Shown here in pieces: positions 19,701 to 59,928 of a stretch of 64,000 nucleotides of DNA. Every line of letters begins with the position of its first letter. Within the stretch, counting starts at the first letter, position 1. The DNA is taken from positions 75,640,001 through 75,704,000 of the forward strand of contig CM059430.1 of the NCBI GenBank assembly GCA_030390025.1, in the 5' to 3' direction. This stretch comes from Squalus acanthias (Eukaryota). The notes beneath the pieces are model-generated. The model searched no databases and was not told the origin of the DNA. It was given only the letters and a program-made list of their open reading frames with translations. The position numbers and the translations under genes were made by a program.

Positions 19701-20650
19701 ATATTTAGTCTGTGGGCACGGGCAAGTTGTCTCTTCGTGGCGGAAATACCGCCGTAAATCGCGGTTCCTCTCAGATAAAGTTCGATTAGATAAACATGGA
19801 CTGAGATCGGGGTGGATTCGGAAGGGCCGGTCGAAGTCCCGCCTGGAACGAATTCCGACGCAAAGAGGAGAATCCTCCCACTGATGTCCTCTTTACCTGG
19901 CTGCAGCCTTTAGAAATCTGTGCCATCATCCTTTTACCGCATTAATAATGAAACCCGAGGGAGGGAGTACTGGTGGGTTAGGAACGGAGTCACTTGGACC
20001 AGATGTATCTCAAAATATCACATTTCTCAAAGCTTTCCCACCTTCTCATTTGCCAAGCGAACCTCCACAACCCTTTCTTTATATCTCGTCCTCCAGTTCT
20101 ACTATGTCATTGACTAATCAATGAGTTTCTTCAACGTGTTGCGAACCTGTCACTTTGATGGTATGTTATTGAGATAAAGCACATAAAGGCCGATCAATGG
20201 GGCTTTGCTTTAACTTCGGATTACAGATCCTGTTGAATTGAGGTTCACGTCCTGTCTGTTAAAAAGTTTACCTGAAACAGTTTTTGATACCTGATACGAC
20301 ACCTGACCACATCATCAATCAAATCGGATTATCTACACACTAATATTTCCAAACCATCAGAGCCGCGCTTCATCGGCAGAAAAATAGCTATTATACAATG
20401 TTTGTGTGTCAGTACACATGGGCCTTGTCGATTATTTAAGAAGATATTTTCGGTAATAATCGGTCCAGCTTTATTTTTCCTTTCGTTTCTTCCAATTCAT
20501 CTTCCAATCTTTCTATTTTTCTTACTTGCTTTCTGTCTATCTATTTAGCTAACTATGTCTATCTATCTATTTAGCGATCTATCTATGCGTGCCTATGTAT
20601 ATTTTGTTTCTATCTTATAACTAACGTTTAAAATTATTTTACTGCTGCAG

Positions 20651-20915
20651 TGCTCCAAACCCCTGAAAGCACCAGTGTGATGGCAGGTGCAGACATTACG
20701 TTCCATTGCAACACCAGCTCTGTCCAGGATAATTCAGATGTGAAAGTTTATTGGTGGAGACTTGGCGACAATCACTTCTTACAACCAGGTTCTGACGGCA
20801 GAAAACGAGTCTTCCTTTGAAAAACGGAGAGACTTCCTTTCAGATCCTGAATGCCCGTGTCCCAGACTCCGGAAACACGATGATAGAGGAGCCCGATCGA
20901 AGCATGTTGTGCACG
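20651..20915 (+). pseudogene. Gene A V exon (VJ-type Ig V domain), disabled
   Basis: Acceptor ..CTGCAG| and donor |GTAAGC. Reads VLQTPESTSVMAGADITFHCNTSSVQDNSDVKVYWWRLGDNHFLQPGSDGRKRVFL*, shifts to KNGETSFQILNARVPDSG, then a ~31-nt deletion removes YYC, then DRGARSKHVVH. 25/52 identical to gene B V over the N-terminal part. Confidence 0.88.
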
Positions 20916-21889
20916 GTAAGCGACCTTGGAAAGAGTCGCGACCGCTCCTATTGAAGGATCGCCATTCTAAAATAACAAAACCAGGCGGAGCGGCCATGTT
21001 ATGAGGCTTCTTTTAGTCGAACTTTTGTACATTTATGTTTGGATATTTACAGTGCAGATATAATTGAAGTGCTTTAATATATAGGATTAAGTAGATGGTA
21101 TCATAAATTGTTTTTATTATTTAACGCATCTACCCATGAAGGTAGTTTATGTACGATGATTAGGGAACATTATTTAAAATCAGATCTGAGGTCGTATCGC
21201 GGTTTTCACCCATTAAGTTTTATTTTCTATTCATATATGTAAGATAAGTATCCAGGACACTTTACAGAAGAGGGGTCTGAAGCCAAGAGCGTGGGTTGTG
21301 GTAGCAAACACGAGATGGGTGACTGTCCACAAGGACAGAAAACAAAAGAGTTTCTACAAATACTGGTACGATCACACCTTAATTTCTGTGCACAACTATA
21401 TCACCAATCTACAGTGAGGATACACAAGCATTGGACGCAGTGTAGAAAATGAAAACTAGCTTGAGGAACCGGAGTGAGGTCCAGACTTGAGGAGTTGGGC
21501 CTGTTTACTTTGAGCGCACAAGGCGCATTGGAGATTGTATTCTAGTACTCGAGATTATTAAGAGAATAGATAGTTGGGGTTTGCCCCAAAGACGGCAAGC
21601 AGTGGATAGTGGCTGAAAGGTTACAGAGGAAGCCGACAGAGAGTTTAGATTGAACTACTTTTCGCAGAAAATTGTGAATATGTGAAAGCGGCTGTACAGT
21701 GGACGCAGATTACATGAAAGATGCTAAAGGAAAATTGAATCGTTTTTGACGAAGTGAACGGATGTGATGTTTCAGATATGGGGAATGGACAGCTAGACTG
21801 CAAAGTATTTTCCAATCCTGCATTTCAGATGATATTATTACTGTGTATTCTTAAACGTTTGTGACAATGAAGGCGACTGTCTCTAACTT

Positions 21890-22700
21890 CATAGAATCAC
21901 AGAATCTTAAACCACAGAAACAGACCATTCAGCCTATCGTGCCTGTGTCGGCTCTGTGAAAGAGCTCTCCAATTAGTTCCACTGCCCTGCTATTCCCATA
22001 TAACCCTGCAAAGTTTCCCTTTTCAAGAATATATTCAATTCCCTTTTGCAAGTTACTATTGAATCTGCTTCCACCACCCTGTCAAGCAGCGCATTACAGA
22101 TCACAAGAAAAAATGCGCAAATTATGATTGCAAACACAGTAGAAAATAATAAATTTCATTCTCATTTGCGAGTGGATTCTACAGCAAATGTTGCAGAGAT
22201 TGAACTGGCTGAAAATGAAACAGATGAAGGAGAAGTTGGATCAAATACTGAAACATGGGGAAATAAGTTTATTAATTATGTAAAAAAAACTCTTCTCTCT
22301 TCTGTATTTTGGCCAATAATCTTAAATCTGTGGCTTCTGCTTACCGACCCTCCTGCAACTAGAAACAATCTCTCCCTACCTATCAAAACCCCTCATCACT
22401 TTGGACACCTCAATCAAATTTACTATTTAACCTTCTCTGCTGTAAGGACAACAATCCCAGCTTCTCCAGTCTCCTCACAACACTAAAGTCCCTTATCCCT
22501 GGTATCATTCTGGTAAATCTCTGCTGCACCCTCTCAAAGGCCTTCAAATCCTCCTCAAAGTGTGGAGCCCATATATGAGCAAAATACTCCAGCGGAGGCC
22601 TAACCAGTGATTAATAAATGTTTAGCATAACTTCCTTGTCAATGTGCTTGTCCTGCCACCCTCAAAGATTTATGGTAGTCCAATTATATAAATTGACCTG
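21890..22700 (-). mobile_element. CR1 3' fragment with an unrelated ~200-bp insert (~22105-22280)
   Basis: CATAGAAT-type tail and CR1 3' sequence similar to 5985-6815. Confidence 0.7.
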
Positions 22701-23114
22701 CATGTTAAATTCCTCGGGGTCCTATCGGTTTCACCTCGATAAATTGAGCAGAATACTGAGTTGTAACTCTATCAATAATGACCCTGAATACTGGGAGATG
22801 AGAGTGACAATGCCGCTCTCCGAGGTAGAGCTCTGCATATACATGGAGAACAGAGACGGAGGATCTACAATCTATGAGCATCTGAATAAACTCCATGTAA
22901 ATATACAATGTGGTCCTCGGGACTCTTTGGTCATTTATGAAAAGTAGATATGGTACTAGCCCGGAGTTATACTGCATGCGTGTCGAACCCAACTGTGAGC
23001 CAGCCTTCTCCAAGGAATCTCACCCGCTTCTCGTGGAATGCGGTCAGATCACAACTCTCGATTTAAATTGTAACTTTAACAAGTCCGAATGGGGGCACGC
23101 TTGACAGTAATAAT

Positions 23115-23300
23115 GGGCCGTAATTTGCGACCCCTGCGGGTGCGTACGCATGCGAAACGCGTGCGCCCTTGGGATACATGGGCCTGTGCCCGCGCCTACC
23201 CGGAGAGGCCCAGGGGCGCAATTCTCCAGAACTCCCGGACCAGCAGGTAAATTGGTGGAATTTTTGCAGGTCGGAGGCATACTACCGCAAATTTTGGCCC
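23115..23300. mobile_element. Short MITE with ~15-bp TIRs
   Basis: GGGCCGTAATTTGCG ... CGCAAATTTTGGCCC (revcomp GGGCCAAAATTTGCG). Confidence 0.7.
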
Positions 23301-23940
23301 ATTATATCTCCAGTCTAATGTTAGCCTTGCTGTGTGTCAGGCTGGAAGAGGCTGTGCCTGGACATTCAGCCACTTTCCTCATTCAGCTCAACGGGTGACC
23401 ACCTCAAACATCACTTCCCGCCATTCCCACATAATTACTTTTCCAGCAAGATGTTTATTTTCTCTATACAGTTTTGAACAACGTTAGTTTTTCTGCCCGA
23501 CAATATTCCCGGGATCAATGTATCGCTTCTCCAGACGGTAATCATTTTGCCCAATTGATTCAAATGTACAAATCATATCGCGAACAGTTTGAATTAATAT
23601 TACCTGAATAAGCTTTTCATATTTATTTAAAGCTGTCCAATAAGAAAACTGAGCGAAAAGGTGCTCAGTCCACGCAAAGAATCATGTTACCCTTTGTTCA
23701 ATTTACAAAACTGAATGCGATTTGTTTGAAATAAGTTTTGCCTGCTTTTTTCAACCTGCTTAATAACAAAACTGAGCAAAAAGCTGCTGAGCTGAAATAT
23801 AAATATAATTCTTTGCGTGGACTAACCACAAGCGGCGACGGCCTGAATGTCTAGTCGCACTGATTTGTTTCTCCTGACCCTGCGACAAGCTTCTGCATCG
23901 TCCGTATATTAGTGTAGAAAGTTATGGGAAGAATCTTAAA

Positions 23941-24698
23941 GGCCCAGAAATTAGGCTCCCTGGCTTCCCGCGGGTGCAAGGATCCCGCGTGCACCTACCT
24001 TCCACGCCTGCACTTAACCTCTGGGCCCACGGGGACTTCAGCTCCTGGGCCTCCCCCAACTGCCAGCGGGCAGTGCTTGCGTGTCCCAGGGGCGTAGTTA
24101 GTGTGATGCGTCCCCTGGGATCACGTGGGCCATGGAGAGGCAATGGCAGAAGACCATCTTTCATTCATAGATTTGACCTGTCAAATCTATGAATTAAAAT
24201 CGGCCCCAAAACAACAATTAAACTTCAAATAATTTTTTTAAGAAACCATCACATTTTTAAAATAACTATAAGTTTAATAGATTAACTACTTTAAACTAAA
24301 ATTTTAATTTTTGAAAGAATTAAATTACTTTTTAACAGTGCTGAAAATAAACTTACCTTTCTTTGAAGTATCTAAAAAAGATATAGCTGTTGAAAATTTT
24401 TTTAAATTGGAATTAAGTAATCACTTACCTTGTTGAAAAAGGGTCTTGCGCCTCCTTTTTAAAAGCACAGCTTCTTCAATACTTACCCTCCCGGAGAAAC
24501 CTGAAAAAAAACCTAAATTTGCCGCGTGTGTGCAGACTCCACCGAGCAGGCGGTTCACCTCTGAACAGCTCCCTTCACGAGACCGGAAGTTCCGGTTTCC
24601 CGAGCATGCGCAGTGCATGCAGGAAAGCAGCACTTCAGGTGGCCTTACGGGTGAGTACACAGCAAGTACTCACCCCGCAAGTGCCGAATAACTGGCCC
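23941..24698. mobile_element. MITE (GC arms, AT core), inverted relative of the element at 51253-52013
   Basis: Starts GGCCCAGAAATTAG and ends AATAACTGGCCC; internal GCATGCGCAGTGCATGCAGGAAA is the revcomp of the motif near 51326-51348. Confidence 0.6.
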
Positions 24699-24829
24699 AT
24701 TATTTCGAATGGTTAAATAACCAAAATGCGAATTGGAATCATCGTATGATATTCAGGAAGACTGGACGCCAAACGGGACTAAAATAGCAGAGTCTAGGCA
24801 ATTAGTGTATTCTTAACCCCCTTCCTCAG

Positions 24830-26240
24830 CTTCCCCAGAACCCGTGAGACTGGTTCCCAAAGTGTCCGGAACCAACCCATCTACTCTAACACGATAGCAA
24901 AATACTGCGGATGCTGGAAATCCGAAATAACAACAGAAAACGCTGGAAAAACTCAGCAGGCCAGGCAACATCCGTGGAGAGAGAAAGAGAGTTAACGTTT
25001 CAGGTCGAAACCCTTCGTCGGAACTGAGAGAGCAAGAAATAAACAGATAAAAATGCAAGGGGGAGGCTGGGGGGGAGGAATAAAAGAACAAAAGGGATGG
25101 TCTTTAGTGAGTAGAGACATTGAGAGATGATCAAGGCAAGACGAGATGATAATGGGACAGGTTGAGAAACAAAAGGTAAGGTGTGAAATGCTGGCAGAAT
25201 CAGAGACAGCTGCCGTGGGGGGAGAGAGAGAAAAAAAGGAAAAAGGCACGGACCAAAAGAGTGGATAAAATGTATACATTTGTGGTAGGAGCCTGGTGTT
25301 ATGATCTGAAATTGTTGAACTCGTTATTGAGTCCGGAAGGCTATAAAGTGCCTAAACGGAAGATGAGGTGCTGTTCCTGGAGCTTACGCTGCGCTTCAGT
25401 GGAACAATGCAAGAGGCCGAGGACGGTGAGGTCTGAGTGAGCGTGGAGGGGTGAATTAAAATGACAAGCGACCGGAAGCTCGGGGTCACCCTTCCGGACT
25501 GAATGTAGGTGTTCCGCAAAGCGGTCACCCAATCTGCGTTTGGTCTCCCCAATGTAGAGGAGACCACATCGTGAGCAGCGAATACAGTATACTAGATTGC
25601 AAGAAGTACAAGTAAATCGCTGTTTCACCTGGAAGGGGTGTTTGGGGCCCTGGAGAGTGGGAAGGGGGGATGTATAAGGGCAGGTGTTGCATCTCCTGTG
25701 CTTGCACGGGAAGGTGCCGGGTGAAGGGGAAGGGGTGCTGGGGTTGATAGAGGAGTGGTCTGGGGTGTCTCGGAGGGAGCGGTCCCTACGGAATGCTGAA
25801 AGGGGAGGTGAGGGGAAGATACGTTTGGTGGTGGGATCACGTTGGAGGTGGCGGAAATGGCGGAGGATGATCCATTGAATGTGGAGGCTGGTGGGGTGAA
25901 AGGTGAGGACAAAGGGAACTCTATCGTGGTTCCGGGAGGGAGGGGCCGGGGTGAGGGCAGAAGTGCGGGAGATGGAACGGACACGGTCTAACACTTGTGT
26001 GTGAAACGGCCGAGTTCTACCCGGAGGCTCTCACCTTCACTTGGTATAAAAATGACACCAACATTGTGACTGGGATCAACACCATTATAAAGCTGAATTC
26101 GAAGGGAATGTATGAAGCTTCCAGCAGATTGGAAACGACACAGCCAGCCCAAAGCGGTGCTGTATATACCTGTGTGGTGTCTCACCTCACACTGCAGAGT
26201 CCAGCCGTGGCTGTTTACTTTGCTTCCAGTTCTAACCCAG
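24830..26240 (+). pseudogene. Gene A C1 exon, split by a Penelope insertion (exon pieces 24830-24892 and 25995-26240)
   Basis: Acceptor CCTTCCTCAG| and donor |GTAAGA. Removing the insert plus one TSD copy gives an open 309-nt exon: [103 protein letters not shown] (C1 motifs C..FYP...W and YTCxVxH). Confidence 0.92.
24893..25986 (-). mobile_element. 5'-truncated Penelope-like retroelement (GIY-YIG endonuclease end)
   Basis: ORF 25341-25994: NLVYCIRCSRCGLLYIGETKRRLGDRFAEH, PVACHFN, QEQHLIFRLGTL. Flanked by TCTAACAC at 24885-24892 and 25987-25994. Confidence 0.92.
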
Positions 26241-26708
26241 GTAAGATGCTGACATTTGTGTAAATATGATCAGCCACTGACAACTTTAAATTGGCTTTAT
26301 TTGCTCTCAGTCCTTTTAAAGATTGTTTCCTTTTGCGGATTGGTAAAGCGGATAAAAGAGGCAAACGGCTCGTATCCGAGGCAATTTGCGACACTTTATT
26401 CTTAGCTTCAAATGTCATCATTGTCGTGTGACGACAATCCAAAAATTACAATTTAATCCAATAAACTGAACAATTGACGTTCCTGATTCTGTTTAAGGGG
26501 AAACAAGCATCAATTAAACTATCTTTTATAATAGAATTATATCAGCGTGTACACGTTAACAGTCTCAGTCCTCATGCCCTGCTATGGTAGCACTGAAAAT
26601 ATAAATCGTACAACTAACATATTGTTCAAATCTCTGGTTGCAATACAACGCCTACAATGAAGAGCTTGGCATTGACTCGTAATATTATTAGTTTTATTAT
26701 GATTCTAG

Positions 26709-26825
26709 AAGTTTACCGACACACATCCATTTACCGACTGATTGTTGGATGTACAGGGAGTGTACTGATATTTCTCGCCCACATCACCGTCCTTGGGAGC
26801 AGTTGCAAACTCAGTAACTGTAAAG
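26709..26825 (+). pseudogene. Gene A transmembrane exon
   Basis: TTCTAG| ... |GTAAC, 117 nt, phase 1-1: EVYRHTSIYRLIVGCTGSVLIFLAHITVLGSSCKLSNCK; aligns with the gene B TM exon. Confidence 0.8.
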
Positions 26826-33606: not shown

Positions 33607-34589
33607 GTACAAAAGCAAAATACTGCGGATGCTTGAAATCTGAAATAAAAACAGAAAATGCTGGAAATACTCAGCAGGTCAGGCAGCATCTATGGAGCGA
33701 GAGACAGAGTTAACGTTTCAGGTCGATGACCCTTCGTCAGAACTGGAAAAAGCTGGATATGGAACAGGTTTTTAAGGAAGTGCAGGGGCAGCTAAAGGGG
33801 GGAGGGGAGGAAAGAACAAGAGGGAAGGTCTGTGATAGGATAGAAGGCAGGAGAGATTAGGAGAAATTGAGAGAGATTAAGAGGTGGTGCAAGGCAAAAT
33901 GAGATGTTAATGGGACACATTACGGAACAAAAGATGACTCTAGATGAAGTTTAAATGGCACTGGCAGAATGAACGACAGCTGCCATGTGGGAGAGAGAAA
34001 AAAAATGGGAAAAAAAGGATAGGGGCAGAGGTTATGGTCTGAAATTTTTCAACTCTATCTTGAGTCCAGAAAGCTATAAAGTGCCTAATTGAAAGATGAG
34101 GTGCTGTTCCTCGAGCTTACGTTGAGCTTCATTGGAACAGTGTAAGAGGCCGAGGACGGTGAAGTCAGAGGGGGAGTGAAGCAGAAAATTAAAGTGACAG
34201 GCAAGCGGAAGCTCGGGGTCATCCTTACGGACTGAACGGAGGTGTTCCGCAAAGCGGTTACCCAATCTGCATTTGGTCTCCCCGATGTAGAGGAGACCGC
34301 ATCGTGAGCAGCGAATACAGTATACTAAATAGCAAGAAGTAAAAGTAAATCGCTGTTTCACCTGGAAGGAGTGTTTGGGGCCCTGGATAGGGGGAAGTGT
34401 GGAGGAAAAAGGGCATGTGTTGCATCTCCTGCGCTTGCATGGGAAGATGCAGGGCGAAGGGGAAGGGGTGTTGGGGTTGATACAGTAGTACACCAGGGTG
34501 TCGCGGAGGGAGCAGTCCCTTCAGAATGCTGAAAGGGGAGGTGAGGGGAAGATGTGTTTGGTGGTCGGATCACGCTGGAGGTGGCGGAA
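33607..34589 (-). mobile_element. Second Penelope-like (GIY-YIG) fragment
   Basis: ORF 34074-34493: YCIRCSRCGLLYIGETKCRLGNRFAEH; same 3' end as 24893-25986. Confidence 0.9.
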
Positions 34590-34734
34590 ATGGCTGCGCT
34601 GGCAAACACACCCGAGTGAAAGGCGCGTGGGGGCGGAATGCTGGCATGTTACCGACCCGCTCCAAAATATTTTTACTTTCACTTCCGGCCCGCCTCCATC
34701 CCACCCACATGGACGCCAGAAAATTCCGGCCACA

Positions 34735-43289: not shown

Positions 43290-45830
43290 CAAATAGAAGT
43301 AAATGGGTATGATGTAATTGCCATTACAGAGACATGATTGCAGTGTAACCAATGCTGGGAACTGAATGTTACAGGGTACTCAACATTTACGAAGGACAGA
43401 CAAAAAGTAAAAGGAGGTGGAGCAGCGCTGTAAATAAGGGATCAGATCGGTACGGTAGAGATAACAGATCTTGGATCGGCAGATCATGATGTAGAACTGG
43501 AATCAGTTTGGGTGGAGCTAAGGAACAGCAAAGGGTGAAAAACATTGCTGGGAGTTGTGTATAGGCCACCAAACAGTAGTGGTAATGTAGGGCACAGTAT
43601 CAATCAAGAAATTAGAAGTGCATGTAACAAGGGCAATACGGTAATCAAGGGGAACTTTAATCTGCATATTGGCTGGGCAAATCAATAAACACTAATGGAG
43701 TGGAGGACGAATTCTTAGAATGCATGCGAGATGGATTCCTGGATCAGTATTTGAAGGAACCAAACGGGGAACAGGCTATTCTGGATCTGATACTGTGTAA
43801 TGAGAAAGGGCTAATCAATAATCGTGTGGTAAAGCGGCATTTAGGGGCAAGTGAATATAATATGATTGAATTTTACATTAAGTTTGAGAGTGATGCAGTT
43901 CAATCTGAAACTAGGGTTTTCAATCTAAACAGAGGAAAATACAAGAGTATGAGGGACAAGTTGTCCATGGTAGATTGGGAGACTGCACTAAAAGGTATGC
44001 AGGTGGACATACAATGACTAACGTTCAAGGAAACAATGCATAATTTGCAAAAAAAAACATATATTCCTCTAGGGCATGAAAACCCAAAAGAATAAGTGAT
44101 CCAACCATGGCTAACAAAATAAATTCAAACGAGTATTAAGTCAAAGGAGGAAGCTTATAAAGTAGCCAGAAAAAGCAGTCAGCGTGAGGATTGGGATTAT
44201 TTTAGATTTCAGCAAAGAGGGACCAAGAAATTGATTAAAAAAGGGAAAATATAAGATGAGCACAATCTAGCCAAAAATATAAAAACGGATTTTAAAAGCT
44301 TCTACAGGTATGTGAAAAGGAAAAGACTGGCAAAGGTAAATCTAGGTCCTTTACAGTCAGAGACGGGAGAATTTACAATGGGGAATGAGGAAACCCCACT
44401 ATTGAAGAAAGGAGCGAGAGAGAAAACGGGGCACTACAGACCTGTTAGCCTCACATCAGTAGTTTGGAAAATGCTGGAATCTATTATATAGGATGCAATT
44501 ACTGGGCACTTACAAACTAATAGTAAGATTGGGCAGAGTCAACATAGATTTATGAACGGGATATCCTGTTCGACAAACCTATTGGTGTTCTTTGAGGATG
44601 TAACTAGTGGAGTAAACAAAAGGGAACCGGTAGATGTGGTGTATCTGTATTTTCAGAAGGCATTCGATAAGGTCCCACAAAAGAGGTTGGTGAACAAAAT
44701 TAGAGCACATGGAATTGGGGCTAATATACTAACATGGATTGAGAATTGGTTAACAGACAGAATACAAAGTGTGGGGATAAACGGGTTTTTTTCAGGATGG
44801 CAGGCTGTGACTAGTGGGGTACCGCAAGGATCGGTGCTTGGGCCCCAACTATTCACAAACTATATCAATGATTTGGATGAGAGGACTTAATGTAACATTT
44901 CCAAATTTGCTGATGATACAAAGCTAGGTGGCAGTGTCAGTTGTGAAGAGGATGTGAGGAGGCTTCAAGGGGATCTCGAAAGGGTCATTGAGTGGGCGAT
45001 ATCATGGCAGATGGAATATAATGTGGGTAAATATGAGGTTATCCACTTTGGTAGAAAAAACAGAACGGCAGAGTATTTCCTAAATGGTGAACGATTGGGG
45101 AATGCAGATACACAAAGGGACCTGGGTGTCCTTGTACATGAGTCACTGAAAGTGAATGTGCAGGTGCAGCAAGCCATTAGGAAGTCAACTAGTAAGCTGG
45201 CTTTCATTACAAGAGGATTTAAGTACAGGAGTAAAGAAGTCTTACTCCAATTATATAGGGCCTTGGTGAGACCACACCTGGAGTACTGTGTACAATTGTG
45301 GTCTCCTTACCTTAGGAAGGATGTACATGCCATAAAGGGAGTGCAACAAAAGTTCACGAGATTAATTCCTGGGATGGCGGGACTGTCGTATGAGAAGAGA
45401 TTGAGTAAACTAGGACTGTATTCTCTCGAATTCAGAAGAATGAGATGGGATCTCATTGAAGAATACAAAATTATCACAGGCTTGATAAGGTGGATGCTGG
45501 GAGAATGTTTCCCTTGGCTGGGGATTCTAGAACCAGGGGCCACAGCCTCAGGATACAGGGTCGGCCATTCAGAACTGTGATGAGAAGAAATTTCTTCACA
45601 CAGAGGGTGGTGAATCTTTGCAATTCTCTACCCCAGAGGGCTTTGGAGGCTCAGTCATTGGGAATATTCAAAACAGAAGTCGATAGATTTCTGAGTAGTA
45701 AGGGCATTAATGTTATGGCGATAGGGCCGGTGAATGGAGTTGAGGCAGAAGATCAGCCATGATCTCATTGAATAGCGGAGCAGGCTCGAAGGGCCGAATG
45801 ACCTACTCCTAAACCTATTTCTTATGTTCT
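43290..45830 (+). mobile_element. CR1 LINE ORF2 with an internal deletion near 44390
   Basis: Endonuclease remnants, [32 protein letters not shown]1 3' tail. Confidence 0.93.
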
Positions 45831-45959
45831 TAAGTTCCACTCCCTTTACCGCCGGCGTAATCTGGCAACAGTGTGTACTATCCACAGCACGGGGCGTGCT
45901 TTCAATGACCAATCTTATGGACGTTTGTGTCTGATTGTCACCCTGCTCTGCTGTTGTTC

Positions 45960-46420: not shown

Positions 46421-47244
46421 GTTTGCTTCCCTGTTATGCTCTTCCTCCTGCTCTACTTAAGACGCTGCAGAGAAGAATCCCCTTTGGAAACCCATTTATT
46501 GAAGCTTATGTGAATTCCGAGGAAAATATTTCCGGCTGCCACAAAGACCACAGAAAGAGAGATCGAAGGCCGACTTGCTTTCATAAATTGTCAAGTTATT
46601 GGTCGTTCTTGTAGAACCAATAACGCCTTTTAAAAAGTTACTTCCACCTCGATTCCCGGCAGCAGGTATCGAGCCCAGCTTCAGACGGGACAAACCTGGC
46701 ATGAATGACGGCTTTCGAATGGTTGTTGTCATCCTGTAAAACCCCTCATTTCCTTATCACCGCCAATAGGGGTGCCGGTAATTCTTACCACTACCTCCAC
46801 TTCTAACAACACGCACAAGGGCCGGTATTTCATGACGACCGATTCCCACCGTTTACCTCCCGCCAGCCCAGATTGGACTGGTTCCGCGAATAAATTCAGA
46901 GGAAATTCTACATCAGGATGTCACGCTTCATTTTGACGTATATCATTTCCGGCTCTTCAACGTTCTTACGAACCATCAGCCAGTTCACAGTCTGTCGCTC
47001 CGAGTGATCAATTGGGTCAGAATGTTGGCGAGTGCTGTACTTCAGTGCCTCTCTGTTCTGGGAATCATGTTCACAGATACCTGTTTCTATACCTTGCATT
47101 CTCGCTAAAACGTGGAGTTGCTTAACTTCCATTTGATACAACATGCTTCATTGTCCTTTGCACATATTGCCTGACTCGCTTACCCTCGCACTTTTTCTCC
47201 TGTAATATTCTCACTAATTCGGTTTTGATTTTCTTTTCCGATAG

Positions 47245-47565
47245 GCTCCTGTGAAAATTCGCTCAAAGTGACTCAGCTCCCTGAAAGCGCGAGCGGAATC
47301 ACGGGTAAAAACGTTTCCTTTCATTGCTCGATTCCCTTCTTTCAAGACGGACCACGGGTGAAGGTATTCTGGTGGAAACAGGGTGATAATAAATATCTAA
47401 GCACTGGACCTGATGACAGAAAAGTAACTGACTCCAAAACTAAATTCAGCGGCTTCCTTCAGATAATCAATGTGAGTGTCCAGGACTCGGGAGTATATTA
47501 TTGCACTGTCGCCCATCGAGGCAGAATAGTTGGAAACGGAACGGGATCCAATTTAATTGTTTGGG
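47245..47565 (+). CDS. Gene B V exon: germline-joined VJ-type Ig V-set domain
   Basis: Polypyrimidine tract + TAG|, donor |GTAAGT, 321 nt, phase 1-1, open: SCENSLKVTQLPESASGITGKNVSFHCSIPFFQDGPRVKVFWWKQGDNKYLSTGPDDRKVTDSKTKFSGFLQIINVSVQDSGVYYCTVAHRGRIVGNGTGSNLIVW. Confidence 0.93.
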
Positions 47566-48909
47566 GTAAGTATAAAAGATGAGGCGAATGAGATCCCTGT
47601 GACTGTAATATTTCACTGCAAATATATTCAGCGGATCAATCATACTTTGGAATTGTTTGCATTCTACACTGTTTCGCACTTCGAAGCATTGTTCAGTTAT
47701 ACTTTGAAGCATTTACTTTGGAACTCAAATTTCAATTGTTTTATATATATCAATTGTACTTATACGGAAGACTGATAGCTTTACATGTTGATGAGTGTTT
47801 CAATACTTCCCTATTATTAAACAAATCGGTTGTCCTTTTAATTTTGTGGATAGCGTAAAACGCGCTATATCGGAGCAACTGCTCCTTATTCACCCTTTGT
47901 ATTGTCCTTTCCTTTGAAGTGAATTGAATCAAATATCGGTATAACGATCGGCCCCAAAAGTTAAACTAAAGTTCAATATGTTAACAGACTCATTCTAAGA
48001 TTTAAGAGCACCATCTCTACGTCATTGTCTTGGTTTGTGAGGACTAACATTTACTCTTTGAATACAGATTGGCGGGTTTATAATATAATGATCCACATAT
48101 TGAGAGTCTTGAAAGCCGGGTGTAAATAACAGTTAGTTATTGTCCTCTGCCTGCATCCCGATTCTCTCACTGCTAACTTACCTGACGAAGGAGCGAACTG
48201 CTTCGAAAGCTTGTAAAATTAAATAAATCTGTTGGACTATAACCTGGTGTTGTGCGACTTCTCATTTTTGCATCCCGGAAGACCAACCCCATATTTTCAT
48301 AAAGTTCCTAATCTCCAGTAAGTAAGATGTTGACCAGAACCTGAGTTCTAAAGCCTCACCCGCTTGGGAAAATCGAATTTTGTCGCCAATTGTTATACTG
48401 CAACCCTTAACCAGGTTTTAAATCGGTAGAATTGTAAGATCCCCGATTAAATGTACGGAATATAATTTCAGCAACCTTTCTCAATTGCATAAGTCATATT
48501 ATTTGCTTCATCCAAGGAGCCATATAGAGGGAGAAGCAGACTGTGTTCCTTACCCTTATGGAAAGGGCCTGTGGTGTATTTTAATGTTGTGAATTTAGAT
48601 CAGATACATTGAAGAACAATACTTCCTTGTGCTAATTGTTAAAGTTGTGAAGATGTTAAAAAACTGAAAAATTAGCACTGAATAATAATAGAATACAACA
48701 GAAAATTATATAGCGCAAATGTAATAGAACATCACACAATTTATCCACAAATAAAGAGGGAAACATGAACATCAGGTTTAGATTTAGAAGATGCCGTTAT
48801 CTATGTCCCTACTGATAGCGCACAGAGAAAATGTCCAGTCACAAATGCAGCGATGGGTTTATAACCTTGAATGATGTCGAAGTAACGTTCTTTTCCTCTA
48901 CTTTTCTAG

Positions 48910-49218
48910 TTCCGCCAACTCCACTGAAAATTGTCTCTCTGGAACCTGAAAAGAATTCACTTGCGTCACTGACTGTACTGTGCGCAACATCTCCCTTTTA
49001 TCCGCAGAATATCAGCTTCACCTGGTATAAGGATGGAATCAAAATTACAACAAGGATAAATAACATTCATCAACCAAACACCGATGGACTATATGAAGCT
49101 TCCAGCCGGTTGGAAGAGACGCAGGATGTCCAGACCTGGACCGTTTATACCTGCCTGGTGTCTCACAGAACCCTCAAAATTTCCGTCACGGCCACCCACA
49201 TTGTTAGGAACCCTACAG
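48910..49218 (+). CDS. Gene B C1-set Ig domain exon
   Basis: TTTTCTAG| ... |GTAAGA, 309 nt, open: [43 protein letters not shown]...GLYEASSRL...[11 protein letters not shown]...NPT. Confidence 0.93.
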
Positions 49219-49809
49219 GTAAGATTGTAGATCACAGTTATCCTGCAGACAGAGCAGTTGCTGCGACTCTCCCGGTTGGACAAACTGTCCTTTCTCACTC
49301 GTTGTTCTACCTCAGGCTCTTTCACCAGGTTTTACTTCAATAAAAGTGTAGGAATCCTGGTTGCCTTTGTTCACTTTTAATCAGGTTTAATTCTGTTCAA
49401 AGAGCTCTACGATTGCTGCTCATGGTCCCCTGCCTCAATGGGCGTCTCCTACTGCAGTCCTGGTGTCACGGCTCAGAGTTGGCACTGACTCTTGGGGCAA
49501 GAGCGGGCGGTAACTCCGGCCGACATGTTGTTGCAGAATTGCTGCCTCCTGCGTCCCACAATCTGTGCTCACAATCTGCTGCAAACTGTAATTGTATCAA
49601 CAGCTATTAGACACAGTGAAAAGTTAAAAAATAACCGTTTTCACTTTCAGTCGCCATCTTATTATCAACAAGAACCCAGGTAAAATTAGTTTCGAGAAAA
49701 TATGTTTTTCCTAACACTAGACTTTCGTGAAAAAAGTACAAAATGTCAAAGATTGATTTAAAATGTCTCTGTTTTTTGAGACCACGTGTTTGCTGCGAAT
49801 AATCTTACG

Positions 49810-50582
49810 ACAGGAGGCAAGGGAATACACAATGAATGGTAACACCCCAGGAAAGGCAGAGGATCAGAGGGACCTTGGTGTGCATGTACATAGATCCCTG
49901 AAGGCAGCAGGGCAGGTAGATAAGGTGGTTAAAAAGGCATATGGGATACTTGCCTTCATTAGCCGAGGCATAGAATATAAAAGCAGGGAGGTTATGATGG
50001 AGCTGTACAAAATGCTAGATAGGCCACAGCTGGAATACTGTGTGCAGTTCTGGTCGCCACACTATAGGAAGGATGTAATTGCATTGGAAAGTGTGTAGAG
50101 GAGATTCACCAGGATGTTACTTGGGCTGGAGCGCTTCAGCTATGAAGAGAGACTGGACAGGCTGGGCTTGTTTTCCTTAGAGCAGAGAAGGCTGAGGGGG
50201 GACCTGATTGAATTGTACAAAATTATGAGGGGCATAGATAGGGTAGATAGAAAGGAACTTTTCCCCTTAGTAGAGGGGTCACTAACAAGGGGGCATAGTT
50301 TCAAGGTAAGGGGCAGGAGTTTAGAGGGGATTTGAGGAAAAACTTTTTCACCGCGAGGGTGGTTGGAATCTGGAACTCACTGCCTGAAAGGGTGGTAGTG
50401 GCAGGAACCCTCTCAACATTCAAGAAGCATTTAGTTGAGCACTTGAAACGCCATAGCATACAAGGCTACGGACCAAGTGCTGGAAAATGGGATTAGAATA
50501 GCCAGGGCTTGATGGCCGGCGCGGACACGATGGGCTGAAGGGCCTCTTTCTGTGCTGTATAACTCTATGACTCTATGACTCT
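49810..50582 (+). mobile_element. CR1 3' end in the gene B C1-TM intron
   Basis: RDLGVHVHRSLK, RPQLEYCVQFWSP, LEQRRLRGDLIE; ACTCTATG-repeat tail. Confidence 0.92.
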
Positions 50583-50668
50583 TTAACAGGAATCCATTAC
50601 GTTAGTTGTGTTTGAATGCCAATTTGGACAAATCCTTAATACATATGTAATTTACTTTAATATTTTAG

Positions 50669-50782
50669 ATCGTGCCAACAGCTCCCGTGTCTTACTGATT
50701 TCCAGATGTGCATGGGTTGGACTGGTATTGCTAATGGTGGCACTCATTATTGCGAAGCGATGTCAATCAAAGAAAAGTAAAG
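50669..50782 (+). CDS. Gene B transmembrane exon
   Basis: TTTTAG| ... |GTAAT, 114 nt, phase 1-1: DRANSSRVLLISRCAWVGLVLLMVALIIAKRCQSKKSK (hydrophobic span plus basic stop-transfer). Confidence 0.88.
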
Positions 50783-54320: not shown

Positions 54321-54701
54321 ACTTTTACTAATATTAATCATCTTAAACCTGCCACAATCGCGAGCTGTAAACCTGTTTAACCTTGATTGTACTGCTCAGT
54401 GAGGAATAGGCCCGTTCTTATCCCTAACGTTCGCTGTGATTGAACAGTAACGGACGGCTAAATCCCGTGTCACAGGAGCTTTTTTTTGTTTGTTAATTTA
54501 AATGGCCCGAAAATCAGGTCCCGCCGACCGGCGATTTCCCTGTCCGCGCTCACTGTCAAAAACTCTGACCCGGGAGTCCGCTCAATTGAAGTAACAACAG
54601 AAATAAATAACTATTTTGTATCTCAGTTGCTGCAGAGAGACGCGGATGCAAAGCCGCCCTCCGATGCAATAGCATTGACCAGTTCCAATAACAACCTTCA
54701 G

Positions 54702-54790
54702 GGATAAACATTGAAGGAGAGACAGCATCCGGCTGGGAATCAGAACAAAGAGACACAGATCGCCCACAATTGAACAAAAAATACATCACG
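54702..54790 (+). CDS. Gene B putative cytoplasmic exon
   Basis: CCTTCAG| phase 1, open and hydrophilic: GINIEGETASGWESEQRDTDRPQLNKKYIT; weak donor |GTGCAA. Confidence 0.4.
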
Positions 54791-56719: not shown

Positions 56720-59700
56720 GTCCAACGTGGACAATAGATTTGTTTACATTCTGGAGCCATTTCGTTACACCTTGGTAGAACCGGGACCAATATCCTCGCA
56801 GGGGTGGGGGGGGGGGGGGGGGGGGGGTTGCTAGTGCTGTTTAAAAGGATTTAAACTAGTTTGTCAGGGGGATGGGAACCTAAGTGTGGGTCCAGAACAG
56901 ATAGAAACAAAGCTGGAAGTGCAAGTTAGAAAATAGTCAGGAAAACTAGTAGGAAGCAGAAACAAAGGCCAACTGTAAAGTAGGTCAAAGTGCAGAAAAA
57001 TATTAAACAGGCAAAGTTGAAGACACTTTATCTAAATGCAGGTAGCATTCGCAATAAAGTGGATGAGTTAATGGCACTAATAAAAGTAAATGGGTATGAT
57101 GTAACTGCCATTACAGAGATATGGTTGCAGGGTAACCAAAGCGGGGAACTGAATGTTCAAGGGTACGCAATATTTAGGAATGGCAGACAAAAAGGAAAAG
57201 GAGATGGCGTAGTGCTGTTAATAAGGGATGAGATCGGTACGGTAGAGATAAAAGATTTTGGCTTGGCAGATCGTGATGTAGAACTGGAATCAGTTTAGGT
57301 GGAGCTAAGAAACAGCAAAGGGCGGTAAATTTTGGTGGGAGTTGTTTGTTGGTCACCAAACAGTAGTAGTAATGTAGGGCACAGTATCAATCAATAGATA
57401 AGAAGTGCATATAACAAGGGCAATACAGTAATCATGGGGAACTTAAATCTACATATTAACTGGGGAAATCAAATTACCACTAAGTTTGTGGAGGACGAAT
57501 TCTTGGAATGCATGCTAGATAGTTTCCTGGATCAGTATGTGGTGGAACCAACCAGGGAGCAGGGTATTCTGGATGTGGTAATGTTTAATTAGAAAGGGCT
57601 AATCAATAATCTTGTGGTAAAGGGGCCTTTAGGGACAAGTGACCATAATATGATTGAATTTTATGTTAAGTTTATGAGTGATGTAATCCAATCTAAAACT
57701 AAGGACTTCAATTCAAACAGAGGAAACTACAAGGATATGAGGGACAAGTTGGCCATGGTAGATTGGGAGACTGCACTAAAAGGTATGAAGGTGGACATAC
57801 AATGGCTAACATTCAAGGAAATAATGCATAATTTGCAACAAACATATATTCCTCTAGGATATAAAAACCCAAAAGCAAAAGTGATCCAACCATGGCAAAC
57901 AAAAGAAAGTAAAGTTAGTATTAAGTCAAAGGAGGAAACTTAGAAAGTTGCCATAAAAAGCGCTCAGCCTGAGGATTGGGATCTTTTCAGAATTAGCAAA
58001 GGGGGACCAAGAAATTGATAAAGAGAGAGAAAATGAAAGATGATCACAAACTAGCGAAAAATATAAAAACGGATTGTAAAATCTTCTATCGCTATGTGAA
58101 AAGGAAAAGACTGGCGAAGGTAAATGTAGGACATTTACAGTCAGAGACGGGAGAATTTAAAATGGGGAATGAGGAAATGACATGGAAATTAAATAAATAC
58201 TTTGTTTCTGTCTTCATGGAGGAAAACACAAAAAAACTCCCAGAAATACGAGAAAACCAAGGGTGTGGGGAGAATGAGAAACTTAAAGAAATTTTTATTA
58301 GTAAAAAAACATTACTAGCAATATTATTGGGACCAAAAGTCGATAAATCCCAAGGATTGAATGACCTACATCCCAGGGTTTCGAAAGAGGTGGCCATTGG
58401 GATATTGGACAAATTGGTTGTCATCTTCTAACATTCTATAGATTTTGGAACGGTTCCTGCAGATTGGAGGACAGCAAACGTTACCACGCAATATAAGAAA
58501 GGAGGGAGAGAGAAAACGGGGAACTACAGATCTGTTAGCCTCACATCAGTAGTTGGGAAAATGCTGGAATCTATTATAAAGTATGCAATAATTGGGCACT
58601 TAGAAACTAATAGTAAGATTGGGCAGAGTCAACATGGAGTTATGAAAGGGAAATCCTGTTTGACAAACCTATTGGAGTTCTTTGAGGATGTAACTAGTGG
58701 AGTAGGCAAAGGGGAACAGGTAGATGTGGTGTATCTGGATTTTCAGAAGGCCTTCGATAAGGTCCCACACAAGGTTTTGTGAACAAAATTAGGGCACATG
58801 GAATTGTGGGTAATATACTAGCATGGATTGAGAATTGGTTAACAGGCAGATCAAAAAGAGTAGGGTAACTGGGTCTTTTTTAGGATGGCAGTCTGTGACT
58901 AGTGGGGTACCGCAATGATCGGTGCTTGGGCCCCAGCTATTCACAATCTATATCAATGATTTGGATGAGGGAATTAAATGTAACATTTCCAAATTTGCTG
59001 ATGGTACAAAGCTAGGTGTCAGTGTCAGTAGCGAAGAGGATGTGAAGAGGCTTCAAGGGGATCTCGACGGGCTTAGTGGGTGTGCGAGAACATGGCAGAT
59101 GGAATATAATGTGGATAAATGTGAAGTTATCCACTTTGGTAGAAAAAACAGCAAGGCAGAGTATTTCCTAAATGGAGAAAGAATGGGGAAGGCAGATGAA
59201 AAAGGGACCTGGGTGTCCTTGTACATGAGTCACTGAAAGTGAATGTGCAGGTGCAGCAAACCATTAGGAAGGCAAATGGTATGCTGGCCTTCATTACAAG
59301 AGCATTTGAGTACAGGAGTAGAGAAGTATTTCTCCAATTATATAGGGCCTTGGTGAGACCACACCTGGAGTACTGTGTACAATTTTGGTCTCCTTACCTA
59401 AGGAAGGATATACTTGCCATAGAGGGAGTGCAACGAAGGTTCACGAGATTGATTCCTGGGATGGCAGGACTGTCGTACGAGAAGAGATTGAGTTAACTAG
59501 GCCTGTATTCTCTTTAATTCAGAAGAATGAGATGGGATCTCATTGAAGCATACAAAATGATTGCAGGGCTTGATAGGGTGGATGCTGGGAGCATGGTTCC
59601 CTTGGCTGAGGAATTTAGAACCAGGGGCCATAGACTCAGGTTAAAATGTGGTCTATTCAAGACTGAGATGAGAAGAAATTTCTTCACACAGAGGGTGGTG

Positions 59701-59928
59701 AATCTTTTGAATGCTGTATCCCAGATGGCTGAGGAGGCTCAGACATTGGGCATATTCAAAACAGAAGTCGATAGATTTGTGACTAGTAAGGGCATCAAGA
59801 GATATGGCGATAAGGCCGGTGAATGGAATTGAGGCAGAAGATCAGCCATGATCACATTGAATGGCGGAGCAGGCTGGAAGTGCCGAATGGCCTACTCCTG
59901 CTCCTATTGCTTATCTTCTTATGTTCGT
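56720..59928 (+). mobile_element. Near-complete CR1 ORF2 (endonuclease + RT) with the ORF1 end, decayed; poly-G at ~56800-56828
   Basis: [54 protein letters not shown], 3' tail. Confidence 0.95.

What the first reader, a model, noticed from the sequence alone, without database searches (positions are those of the whole stretch)
47245..50782. Intact non-rearranging antigen-receptor-like gene: germline-joined VJ + single C1 + TM
Seen: three open phase-1 exons. The V exon runs from YYC straight into GNGTGSNLIV in one exon; I found no RSS heptamer/nonamer at the junction. A true C1-set exon and a TM exon follow. Established: C1-set domains are largely confined to Ig/TCR/MHC/beta2m/tapasin/SIRP/B7H6-type molecules, and single-exon VJ domains with a GxGTxLxV strand typify NKp30 and SIRP. 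V(J)-C1-TM is the proposed architecture of the pre-RAG receptor ancestor, and such non-rearranging genes have been reported in some non-mammalian vertebrates. Inference: a member of a lineage-expanded VJ-C1 immune receptor family. Whether this family is already named cannot be told from sequence alone.
Basis: partly seen in the sequence, partly recalled or inferred. Interest (0 to 1): 0.75.

Follow-up and report, generated by a model that had tools for sequence, protein, structure and literature searches.

The report
Shark paired V-C1 immune receptor gene
This shark gene encodes a non-rearranging, antibody-like surface protein from a gene family of cartilaginous fishes whose members come in matched forms that likely switch immune cells on or off; this copy has the likely activating form, but its first splice site is mutated, so it is probably not made.

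Summary
Two things were missed. (1) The gene belongs to a multigene V(J)-C1-TM family of cartilaginous fishes (16 named species, chimaera included). Members carry either a TM arginine with a short tail or a long tail with ITIM-type tyrosines, and Arg/ITIM pairs share 80-89% ectodomain identity: the signature of paired receptors. This copy is the Arg, tyrosine-free type. (2) It is probably not intact: the leader exon (47022-47076) ends in AT instead of GT, so it is likely a young null copy unless the base is an assembly error. A decayed paralogue lies upstream. The V domain is short and VNAR-like. The family forms its own clade, apart from the SIRP, UrIg2-like, IgH and B7-like rows sampled; its deeper kinship (SIRP, PRARP, one coelacanth V-C1 gene) is unresolved. 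In catshark it is not on the MHC chromosome. I found no description in 10 literature searches, but the key PRARP and VJC1 papers were not available.

The parts
47022..47076 (+). Gene B leader (signal peptide) exon, 18 codons + 1 base
   Evidence: tblastn and ungapped scan with horn-shark leaders: best hit in the window, score 71 against 27 for the next
47077..47078 (+). Non-canonical first-intron donor, AT in place of GT; intron is U2-like at its 3' end and does not match the recalled U12 5' consensus
   Evidence: sequence; in-frame open alternative GTs only at 47032 (removes most of the signal peptide) and 47083 (crude score -7.8 against 3.8-7.4 for the gene's real donors)
47245..47565 (+). 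Gene B single-exon V(J) domain, short type (Cys-Cys 59), GxG strand germline-joined
   Evidence: AlphaFold2 model pLDDT 90; best structural match VNAR, Z 14.0, rmsd 2.0, 98 aligned, tied with NCAM I-set domains
48910..49218 (+). Gene B C1-set exon
   Evidence: Pfam C1-set 51 bits; 73% identical to XP_067906080; V-C1 joint in run X6
50669..50782 (+). Gene B TM exon with an arginine near the outer end of the helix (LLISRCAW)
   Evidence: same motif in horn-shark XP_067906084 (P0009) and stingray P0020; C1-TM joint in run X1
54627..54707 (+). Gene B last (cytoplasmic) exon; three possible acceptors (54627, 54636, 54640), none gives a tyrosine; stop ends at 54691 or 54707
   Evidence: homologous to the tail of P0009 and P0002; no exon like the ITIM tails found downstream in the window
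20644..20873 (+). Gene A (decayed paralogue, other subfamily) V remnant, frameshifted, no intact F and G strands
   Evidence: tblastn in two frames against P0021 and P0027; translations
24830..26240 (+). Gene A C1 exon, split by a 1102-bp insertion (24893-25994) with an 8-bp target-site duplication (24885-24892, 25987-25994)
   Evidence: both halves match P0064 (64% and 82%); duplication; insert has a GIY-YIG hit, 21.6 bits, just under the cut-off
26709..26825 (+). Gene A TM exon
   Evidence: 50% identical to the P0064 TM region; AG..GT bounds

Best explanation
Gene B is a germline-encoded V(J)-C1-TM receptor gene of a cartilaginous-fish multigene family that likely works as paired activating and inhibitory immune receptors; this copy has the likely activating design but is probably a young null because its leader donor reads AT. 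Shown: exon structure, family membership, TM arginine, tyrosine-free tail, ITIM-tailed paralogues with near-identical ectodomains, AT donor. Inferred from established paired-receptor biology (recalled: LILR/PIR, NKp30, NKp46): the long-tailed members would recruit SHP-1/2 through their tyrosine motifs when the V domain binds a ligand, and the Arg-TM members would pair with an ITAM adaptor of the FcR-gamma/CD3-zeta type and activate on the same or a mimicked ligand; the C1 domain would act as a spacer. Ligand, cell type and adaptor are untested.
For: 47 of 47 hits of the family profile are named from cartilaginous fishes, 16 species. In 8 of 9 species with two or more hits that give a contig length, all lie on a contig of one length (horn shark 10 of 10, catshark 6 of 6); S. 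torazame is the exception. Of 79 distinct TM regions, 16 have an outer-end Arg and 2 of these a long tyrosine-motif tail, against 41 of 63 without Arg (Fisher p 1.8e-4; rows are related, so p is overstated). Arg and ITIM forms recur as close pairs in separate subfamilies: 80, 82, 83 and 89% ectodomain identity, against 43-51% between Arg forms of different subfamilies (V tree). Long tails repeat a two-tyrosine unit with spacings of about 22/14/23. The ectodomain of this copy is not decayed: 1 of 54 otherwise invariant columns changed, against 0-6 for 12 relatives. Donor defect.
Against: No functional or expression data for this copy. The AT may be an assembly error or one allele of a heterozygote; the undecayed ectodomain fits a working gene just as well. 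22 of 63 non-Arg TMs lack a long tyrosine tail (some are short isoforms or partial models), and 3 of the 7 Arg/ITIM pairs compared were only 50-52% identical. The Arg call is a simple rule on a hydropathy window and missed at least one visible case (P0033). Adaptor coupling through Arg is carried over from mammalian receptors.
Confidence: 0.65

Rival explanations
1. Gene B is a working activating receptor: the AT is an assembly error or a minor allele, or the weak in-frame GT at 47083 rescues splicing.
For: Four of five exons are clean; the ectodomain is as conserved as in relatives; terminal branches of 0.14-0.15 match those of P0010; spliced joints exist in relatives.
Against: The only donor sequence available reads AT; the alternative GT scores -7.8 on a crude recalled matrix; the neighbouring paralogue is a clear pseudogene, so turnover is under way in this cluster.
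Confidence: 0.35
2. The family is the cartilaginous-fish counterpart of PRARP / the tetrapod VJC1 genes (V-C1-TM with ITIM/ITSM), that is, new members of a named family.
For: Same architecture as recalled for PRARP. A coelacanth V-C1-TM protein with two tail tyrosines 24 apart (XP_005987622, P0202) is the best non-chondrichthyan C1 match seen (52 bits) and is sister to the family in the C1 tree (99/90, bootstrap not fully settled).
Against: P0202 does not join the family in the V or V+C1 trees; moving it to SIRP is not rejected (p-AU 0.30); its own search returned only itself; that P0202 is a PRARP is my guess, as the papers were not held.
Confidence: 0.35
3. The family is the chondrichthyan SIRP family, with one C1 instead of two.
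For: SIRP-family proteins of coelacanth, lungfish and pig are among the nearest V+C1 matches outside the family; human SIRP-alpha ranks second and fourth among solved structures; the four-tyrosine tail resembles the recalled SIRP-alpha layout; family + P0202 + SIRP C1 as one clade costs only 0.6 log units (p-AU 0.45).
Against: SIRP V domains score only 14-19 bits on the family V profile, against 55 or more for full family V domains; V is shorter (54-59 against 60-66); single C1; Arg near the outer TM end rather than the recalled mid-TM Lys of SIRP-beta1; no supported SIRP+family branch in any tree.
Confidence: 0.25
4. It is a germline-joined Ig light chain, a TCR chain or a UrIg paralogue: a direct relic of the gene that the RAG transposon invaded.
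For: VJ-C1 layout, split leader, automatic names such as 'Ig lambda-like'; UrIg2 is the top solved-structure hit for the C1 exon and for the first profile (summed over several domains); family + UrIg2-like C1 as a clade is not rejected (p-AU 0.19).
Against: ITIM tails and Arg/ITIM pairing are not antigen-receptor features; no F/W before the GxG; V lacks the CDR2 region; best sequence match of V to an Ig light chain is only 34 bits; UrIg and UrIg2 have three or more C1 domains (PMC12227049); in Mustelus and Hemitrygon the family and the UrIg2-like protein lie on contigs of different length.
Confidence: 0.07
5. It is a B7-family ligand (B7H6/NCR3LG1-like) or tapasin-like protein, as some automatic names say.
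For: V + C1 + TM layout; automatic names.
Against: J-type GxG strand in at least 90% of 73 aligned sequences; the B7-like rows form their own clade (100/97) apart from the family (98/97) (the label 'B7-like' is mine); signalling tails.
Confidence: 0.04

Closest known systems
PRARP (Fu et al. 2019, J Immunol 202:1992) and Xenopus VJC1 genes (Ohta et al. 2019); papers not held, seen only as titles and citing sentences in PMC10751288 and PMC11599192, content recalled
   Same: Non-rearranging single-exon VJ, one C1, TM, tyrosine-motif tail.
   Different: Recalled as one or two genes per genome in bony vertebrates, inhibitory or switch type; here a multigene family with Arg-TM partners and a short V. 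Orthology untested.
SIRP family (SIRP-alpha/beta/gamma)
   Same: Joined VJ plus C1-set domains, paired inhibitory and activating members, four-tyrosine tail (recalled layout).
   Different: SIRP is V-C1-C1; activating SIRP-beta1 uses a Lys and DAP12 (recalled); V is longer; separate branches in all four trees.
NKp30 / NCR3
   Same: Single-exon VJ with a GxG strand; Arg near the outer TM end (recalled); structural match Z 12.7, 26% identity.
   Different: NKp30 has no C1 and no ITIM partner; shark NCR3 genes are in the MHC (supplement of PMC10751288), while this family in catshark is on another chromosome.
UrIg / UrIg2 (PMC12227049)
   Same: Elasmobranch, non-rearranging VJ + C1 domains, split leader.
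   Different: Three to eleven C1 domains, secreted or long TM homodimers, liver and gill expression, MHC or AgR-complex linkage; separate clade here.
IgNAR V (VNAR)
   Same: Short V lacking the CDR2 region; top structural matches.
   Different: VNAR rearranges; identity 22-28%; tied with I-set domains; no grouping in the V+C1 tree. Convergence is the simpler reading.

Membership tests
Paired Ig-superfamily receptors (functional class) | Clustered paralogues with similar ectodomains, some with ITIM tails and some with a charged TM residue and short tail | tested here: met
   two head-to-tail copies in the window
Paired Ig-superfamily receptors (functional class) | Phosphatase recruitment and ITAM-adaptor coupling on leukocytes | not testable with these tools
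   needs cell assays and expression data
SIRP | V-C1-C1 ectodomain | tested here: not met
   one C1 exon in the window; one C1 in nearly all homologues (P0007 has a duplicated C1)
SIRP | Phylogenetic grouping with SIRP V and C1 | tested here: inconclusive
   no supported joint branch, but not rejected (p-AU 0.45)
SIRP | Conserved synteny; CD47 binding | not testable with these tools
   no genome held; no flanking cellular gene recognised in the window
PRARP / VJC1 | Joined VJ + one C1 + TM + ITIM/ITSM (recalled) | tested here: met
   met by the long-tailed paralogues; gene B itself has no tail tyrosine
PRARP / VJC1 | Orthology to the published sequences | not testable with these tools
   papers and accessions not held; proxy P0202 gave mixed results
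NKp30 / NCR3 | Single V domain, no C1 | tested here: not met
   C1 exon present
NKp30 / NCR3 | MHC linkage in sharks | tested here: not met
   catshark members on a 198.8-Mb contig; the catshark MHC-chromosome gene list ends at 163.4 Mb; indirect, and for catshark only
UrIg / UrIg2 | VJ followed by three or more C1 domains | tested here: not met
UrIg / UrIg2 | Phylogenetic grouping | tested here: inconclusive
   separate starred clades; forced C1 grouping p-AU 0.19
Rearranging Ig / TCR | RSS-flanked V and J segments | tested here: not met
   no RSS near the gene
Germline-joined shark IgL | Full-length V with F-G-x-G J motif, no TM exon | tested here: not met
   N-G-T-G-S strand, Cys-Cys 59, TM exon spliced to C1 in a relative; no shark IgL sequence was available for the trees

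The most novel reading that the evidence does not exclude
Cartilaginous fishes have their own, so far unnamed, system of paired germline VJ-C1 receptors with a VNAR-like short V, older than the shark-chimaera split, independent of SIRP, PRARP, NKp30 and UrIg, which serves as their KIR/LILR-like checkpoint family on NK-like or myeloid cells and shows that the two-domain VJ-C1-TM design survived as an innate receptor.
Probability: 0.35. Interest if true: 0.75.

Novelty: new variant of a known kind. Interest (0 to 1): 0.55.

Why it matters
Inhibitory and activating receptors of NK and myeloid cells are poorly known in cartilaginous fishes; the review I checked has no hit for ITIM, SIRP or NKp30 (PMC6795676, term search). 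A conserved, expanded, paired family gives concrete candidates and markers, hidden in databases under misleading automatic names (SIRP-like, Ig lambda-like, tapasin-like, B7H6-like, MHC II-like). It also adds a VJ-C1 lineage that any account of antigen-receptor origins has to place. This particular copy matters less: it is probably a null, an example of turnover in the cluster.

Tried and rejected
No whole genome is held, so no synteny from the source genome. No RNA holder was listed on record for the region; 9 small-share runs were listed, 4 of the 9 were laid; none of the pieces shown covers the leader exon (32 pieces shown, 12,595 not shown), which says nothing about its splicing. The first AlphaFold2 model (P0009, 8 sequences) had pLDDT 55 and was not used. 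The search with the coelacanth protein returned only itself; its Atlas look-up gave unnamed V/C1 clusters and SIRP clusters at 0.95-0.96 without resolving kinship. Tree caveats: 12 chosen rows yielded no V; three C1 domains (P0105, P0096, P0202) were missed and the P0052 row was a V domain cut by mistake (fixed); P0105 and P0152 were dropped; no NKp30, PRARP, IgL, TCR-constant or named tapasin sequence was available; labels 'UrIg2-like', 'IgH', 'B7-like' and 'SIRP' for P0114 are mine, from architecture. All three AU tests were non-significant. A U12-type AT-intron was considered and rejected on the recalled 5' consensus. No leader or tail exon was found for gene A; the Arg in its TM replaces a Leu of P0064, so no claim is made from it. 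Literature: 10 searches found no description of this family; the PRARP search was swamped by an unrelated acronym. Earlier scan findings by sequence, words and nearby place were empty.

Full report
Observation. The window is repeat-rich shark-type DNA of 40-53% GC. Pfam calls the first V-set and the second C1-set, both above the curated cut-offs. The V exon carries its G strand in the same exon, and a two-strand RSS scan of the window found 1 loose match, 17 kb upstream (consensus recalled). Contigs from related runs bridge V to C1 (one contig, run X6) and C1 to TM (one contig, run X1, GT..AG at exactly the predicted bases); they differ from the window by 6-8%, so they show that the family is spliced this way, not that this copy is (4 of 9 listed runs laid).

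Horn-shark homologues locate a leader exon at 47022-47076 and a last exon from about 54627. The leader is followed by ATACCT where GT is needed. Unspliced, the frame stops after 28 codons. Of 12 GT sites between the ATG and the V acceptor, two are in frame and open: 47032, which removes most of the signal peptide, and 47083, which scores -7.8 on a crude recalled matrix against 3.8-7.4 for the gene's three real donors. The V exon has no methionine to restart from. The ectodomain shows no decay (1 of 54 otherwise invariant columns changed; 0-6 in 12 relatives), so this is either a very young null or a base error. I put about 0.65 on null. The tail is short and has no tyrosine with any of three acceptors, and no exon resembling the long tails lies downstream in the window. 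The TM has an arginine near its outer end, as in horn-shark XP_067906084.

Neighbour. A second, head-to-tail paralogue (gene A, 20644-26825) of another subfamily is a clear pseudogene: frameshifted V, and a C1 exon split by a 1102-bp insertion with an 8-bp target-site duplication.

The family. The V exon found 7 proteins among 165 candidates, 54-80% identical, all from sharks and skates. A profile found 47 among 3281 candidates, all named from cartilaginous fishes, 16 species including the chimaera Callorhinchus. In 8 of 9 species with two or more hits that give a contig length they share one length, and accession numbers are close together, which points to one cluster per genome (inference). 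A search of all 1.84 billion representatives gave 77 proteins at E up to 1e-30; on a V-only profile full family V domains score 55 bits or more and everything else scored among the 201 proteins then held scores 24 or less (printed for ids from P0100 and three others). Of 20 representatives looked up by name, those outside cartilaginous fishes were SIRP-like proteins (lizard, unnamed; lungfish, coelacanth, pig), a paddlefish repeat protein, a frog TCR V array and one coelacanth V-C1-TM protein.

Paired design. Among 79 distinct TM regions, 16 have an outer-end Arg; 2 of these have a long tyrosine-motif tail, against 41 of the 63 without Arg (p 1.8e-4, rows not independent). Arg and ITIM forms sit together in separate subfamilies, at 80, 82, 83 and 89% ectodomain identity in 4 of 7 pairs compared and 50-52% in the other 3; Arg forms of different subfamilies are 43-51% alike. 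The long tails repeat a two-tyrosine unit (spacing about 22/14/23). This is the layout of paired receptors; the signalling steps are inferred from mammalian receptors (recalled) and untested here.

The V domain. Cys-to-Cys spacing is 54-59 in all 42 family rows measured, against 60-66 for SIRP, 67 for the UrIg2-like row and 71-74 for IgH. A confident model (pLDDT 90, 73 sequences) matches VNAR best (Foldseek ranks 1-8 and 10; VIA Z 14.0, tied within 1 with NCAM, basigin and Ig V domains; NKp30 Z 12.7). So the V is a short type without the CDR2 region; the fold does not settle kinship.

Kinship. The family is one clade in the C1 trees (99/99; 97/85) and the V+C1 tree (98/97); the V-only tree is unresolved at depth. 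The coelacanth protein XP_005987622 is sister in the C1 tree (99/90) but not in the others. Forced groupings with SIRP (p 0.45) or with UrIg2-like C1 (p 0.19), and moving the coelacanth row to SIRP (p 0.30), are all unrejected. No NKp30, PRARP, IgL or TCR-constant sequence could be included. Catshark members lie on a 198.8-Mb contig, while the published gene list of the catshark MHC chromosome ends at 163.4 Mb; in two species the UrIg2-like protein lies on another contig than the family. MHC or AgR-complex linkage is therefore unlikely; a paralogon link was not tested.

Literature seen. PMC12227049 (UrIg2): parts 1-4 of 8 and a supplement term search with 0 hits for family accession stems, SIRP or PRARP. 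PMC10751288: passages and three supplement searches. PMC11599192, PMC6795676, PMC8455134: passages from term searches. PMC3964593: supplement term search only, 0 hits for SIRP, NKp30, ITIM. Fu 2019 and Ohta 2019 were not held; the shark NCR3 and first UrIg papers were not read. Ten searches found no description of this family. Because the most relevant papers and their supplements are outside the library, 'undescribed' is provisional.

Verdict. A real gene of a real, conserved family, best read as paired innate receptors with a VJ-C1 ectodomain: it works like SIRP/LILR-type pairs, is built like PRARP, and is not shown to belong to either. This copy is the likely activating type and probably a null. 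Novelty: new variant of a known kind. Interest 0.55.

Noticed in passing
window 20644-26825: Second family gene, decayed: frameshifted V, retroelement-split C1, TM exon; closest stored protein P0064.
   Followed up: yes
window 24893-25994 and 33614-34594: Two related (78%) elements with a GIY-YIG hit, Penelope-like by recall; the first has an 8-bp target-site duplication inside the C1 exon of gene A.
   Followed up: partly
window 43290-45840: LINE with a reverse-transcriptase hit, CR1-like by recall, ending about 1.2 kb upstream of the gene B start codon; 87-89% identical to a copy at 57076-59926.
   Followed up: partly
P0202 (XP_005987622, coelacanth): V-C1-TM protein with two tail tyrosines, automatically named SIRP-like; candidate bony-vertebrate relative of the family or a PRARP.
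   Followed up: partly
P0007, P0016, P0019, P0021: Gene models with duplicated or extra domains (V-C1-C1, V-C1-V-C1, V-V-C1); some may be fused predictions. V-only forms with ITIM tails (P0098, P0154, P0181) also occur.
   Followed up: no
P0105, P0106, P0148, P0066, P0077, P0083: A divergent subfamily whose TM regions start with a WW motif and whose tails, where scored (P0066, P0077, P0083, P0106), have no ITIM-type motif; present in chimaera and rays.
   Followed up: no
supplement of PMC10751288, reedfish chr12 (NC_041405.2, 7.5-11.7 Mb): A cluster of genes with the same automatic names (SIRP-like, tapasin-related-like); could be B7-like genes or relatives of this family.
   Followed up: no
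window 29858: Single loose RSS-like match (exact heptamer, 13-base spacer, nonamer with 3 mismatches), not next to any Ig exon; likely chance.
   Followed up: no
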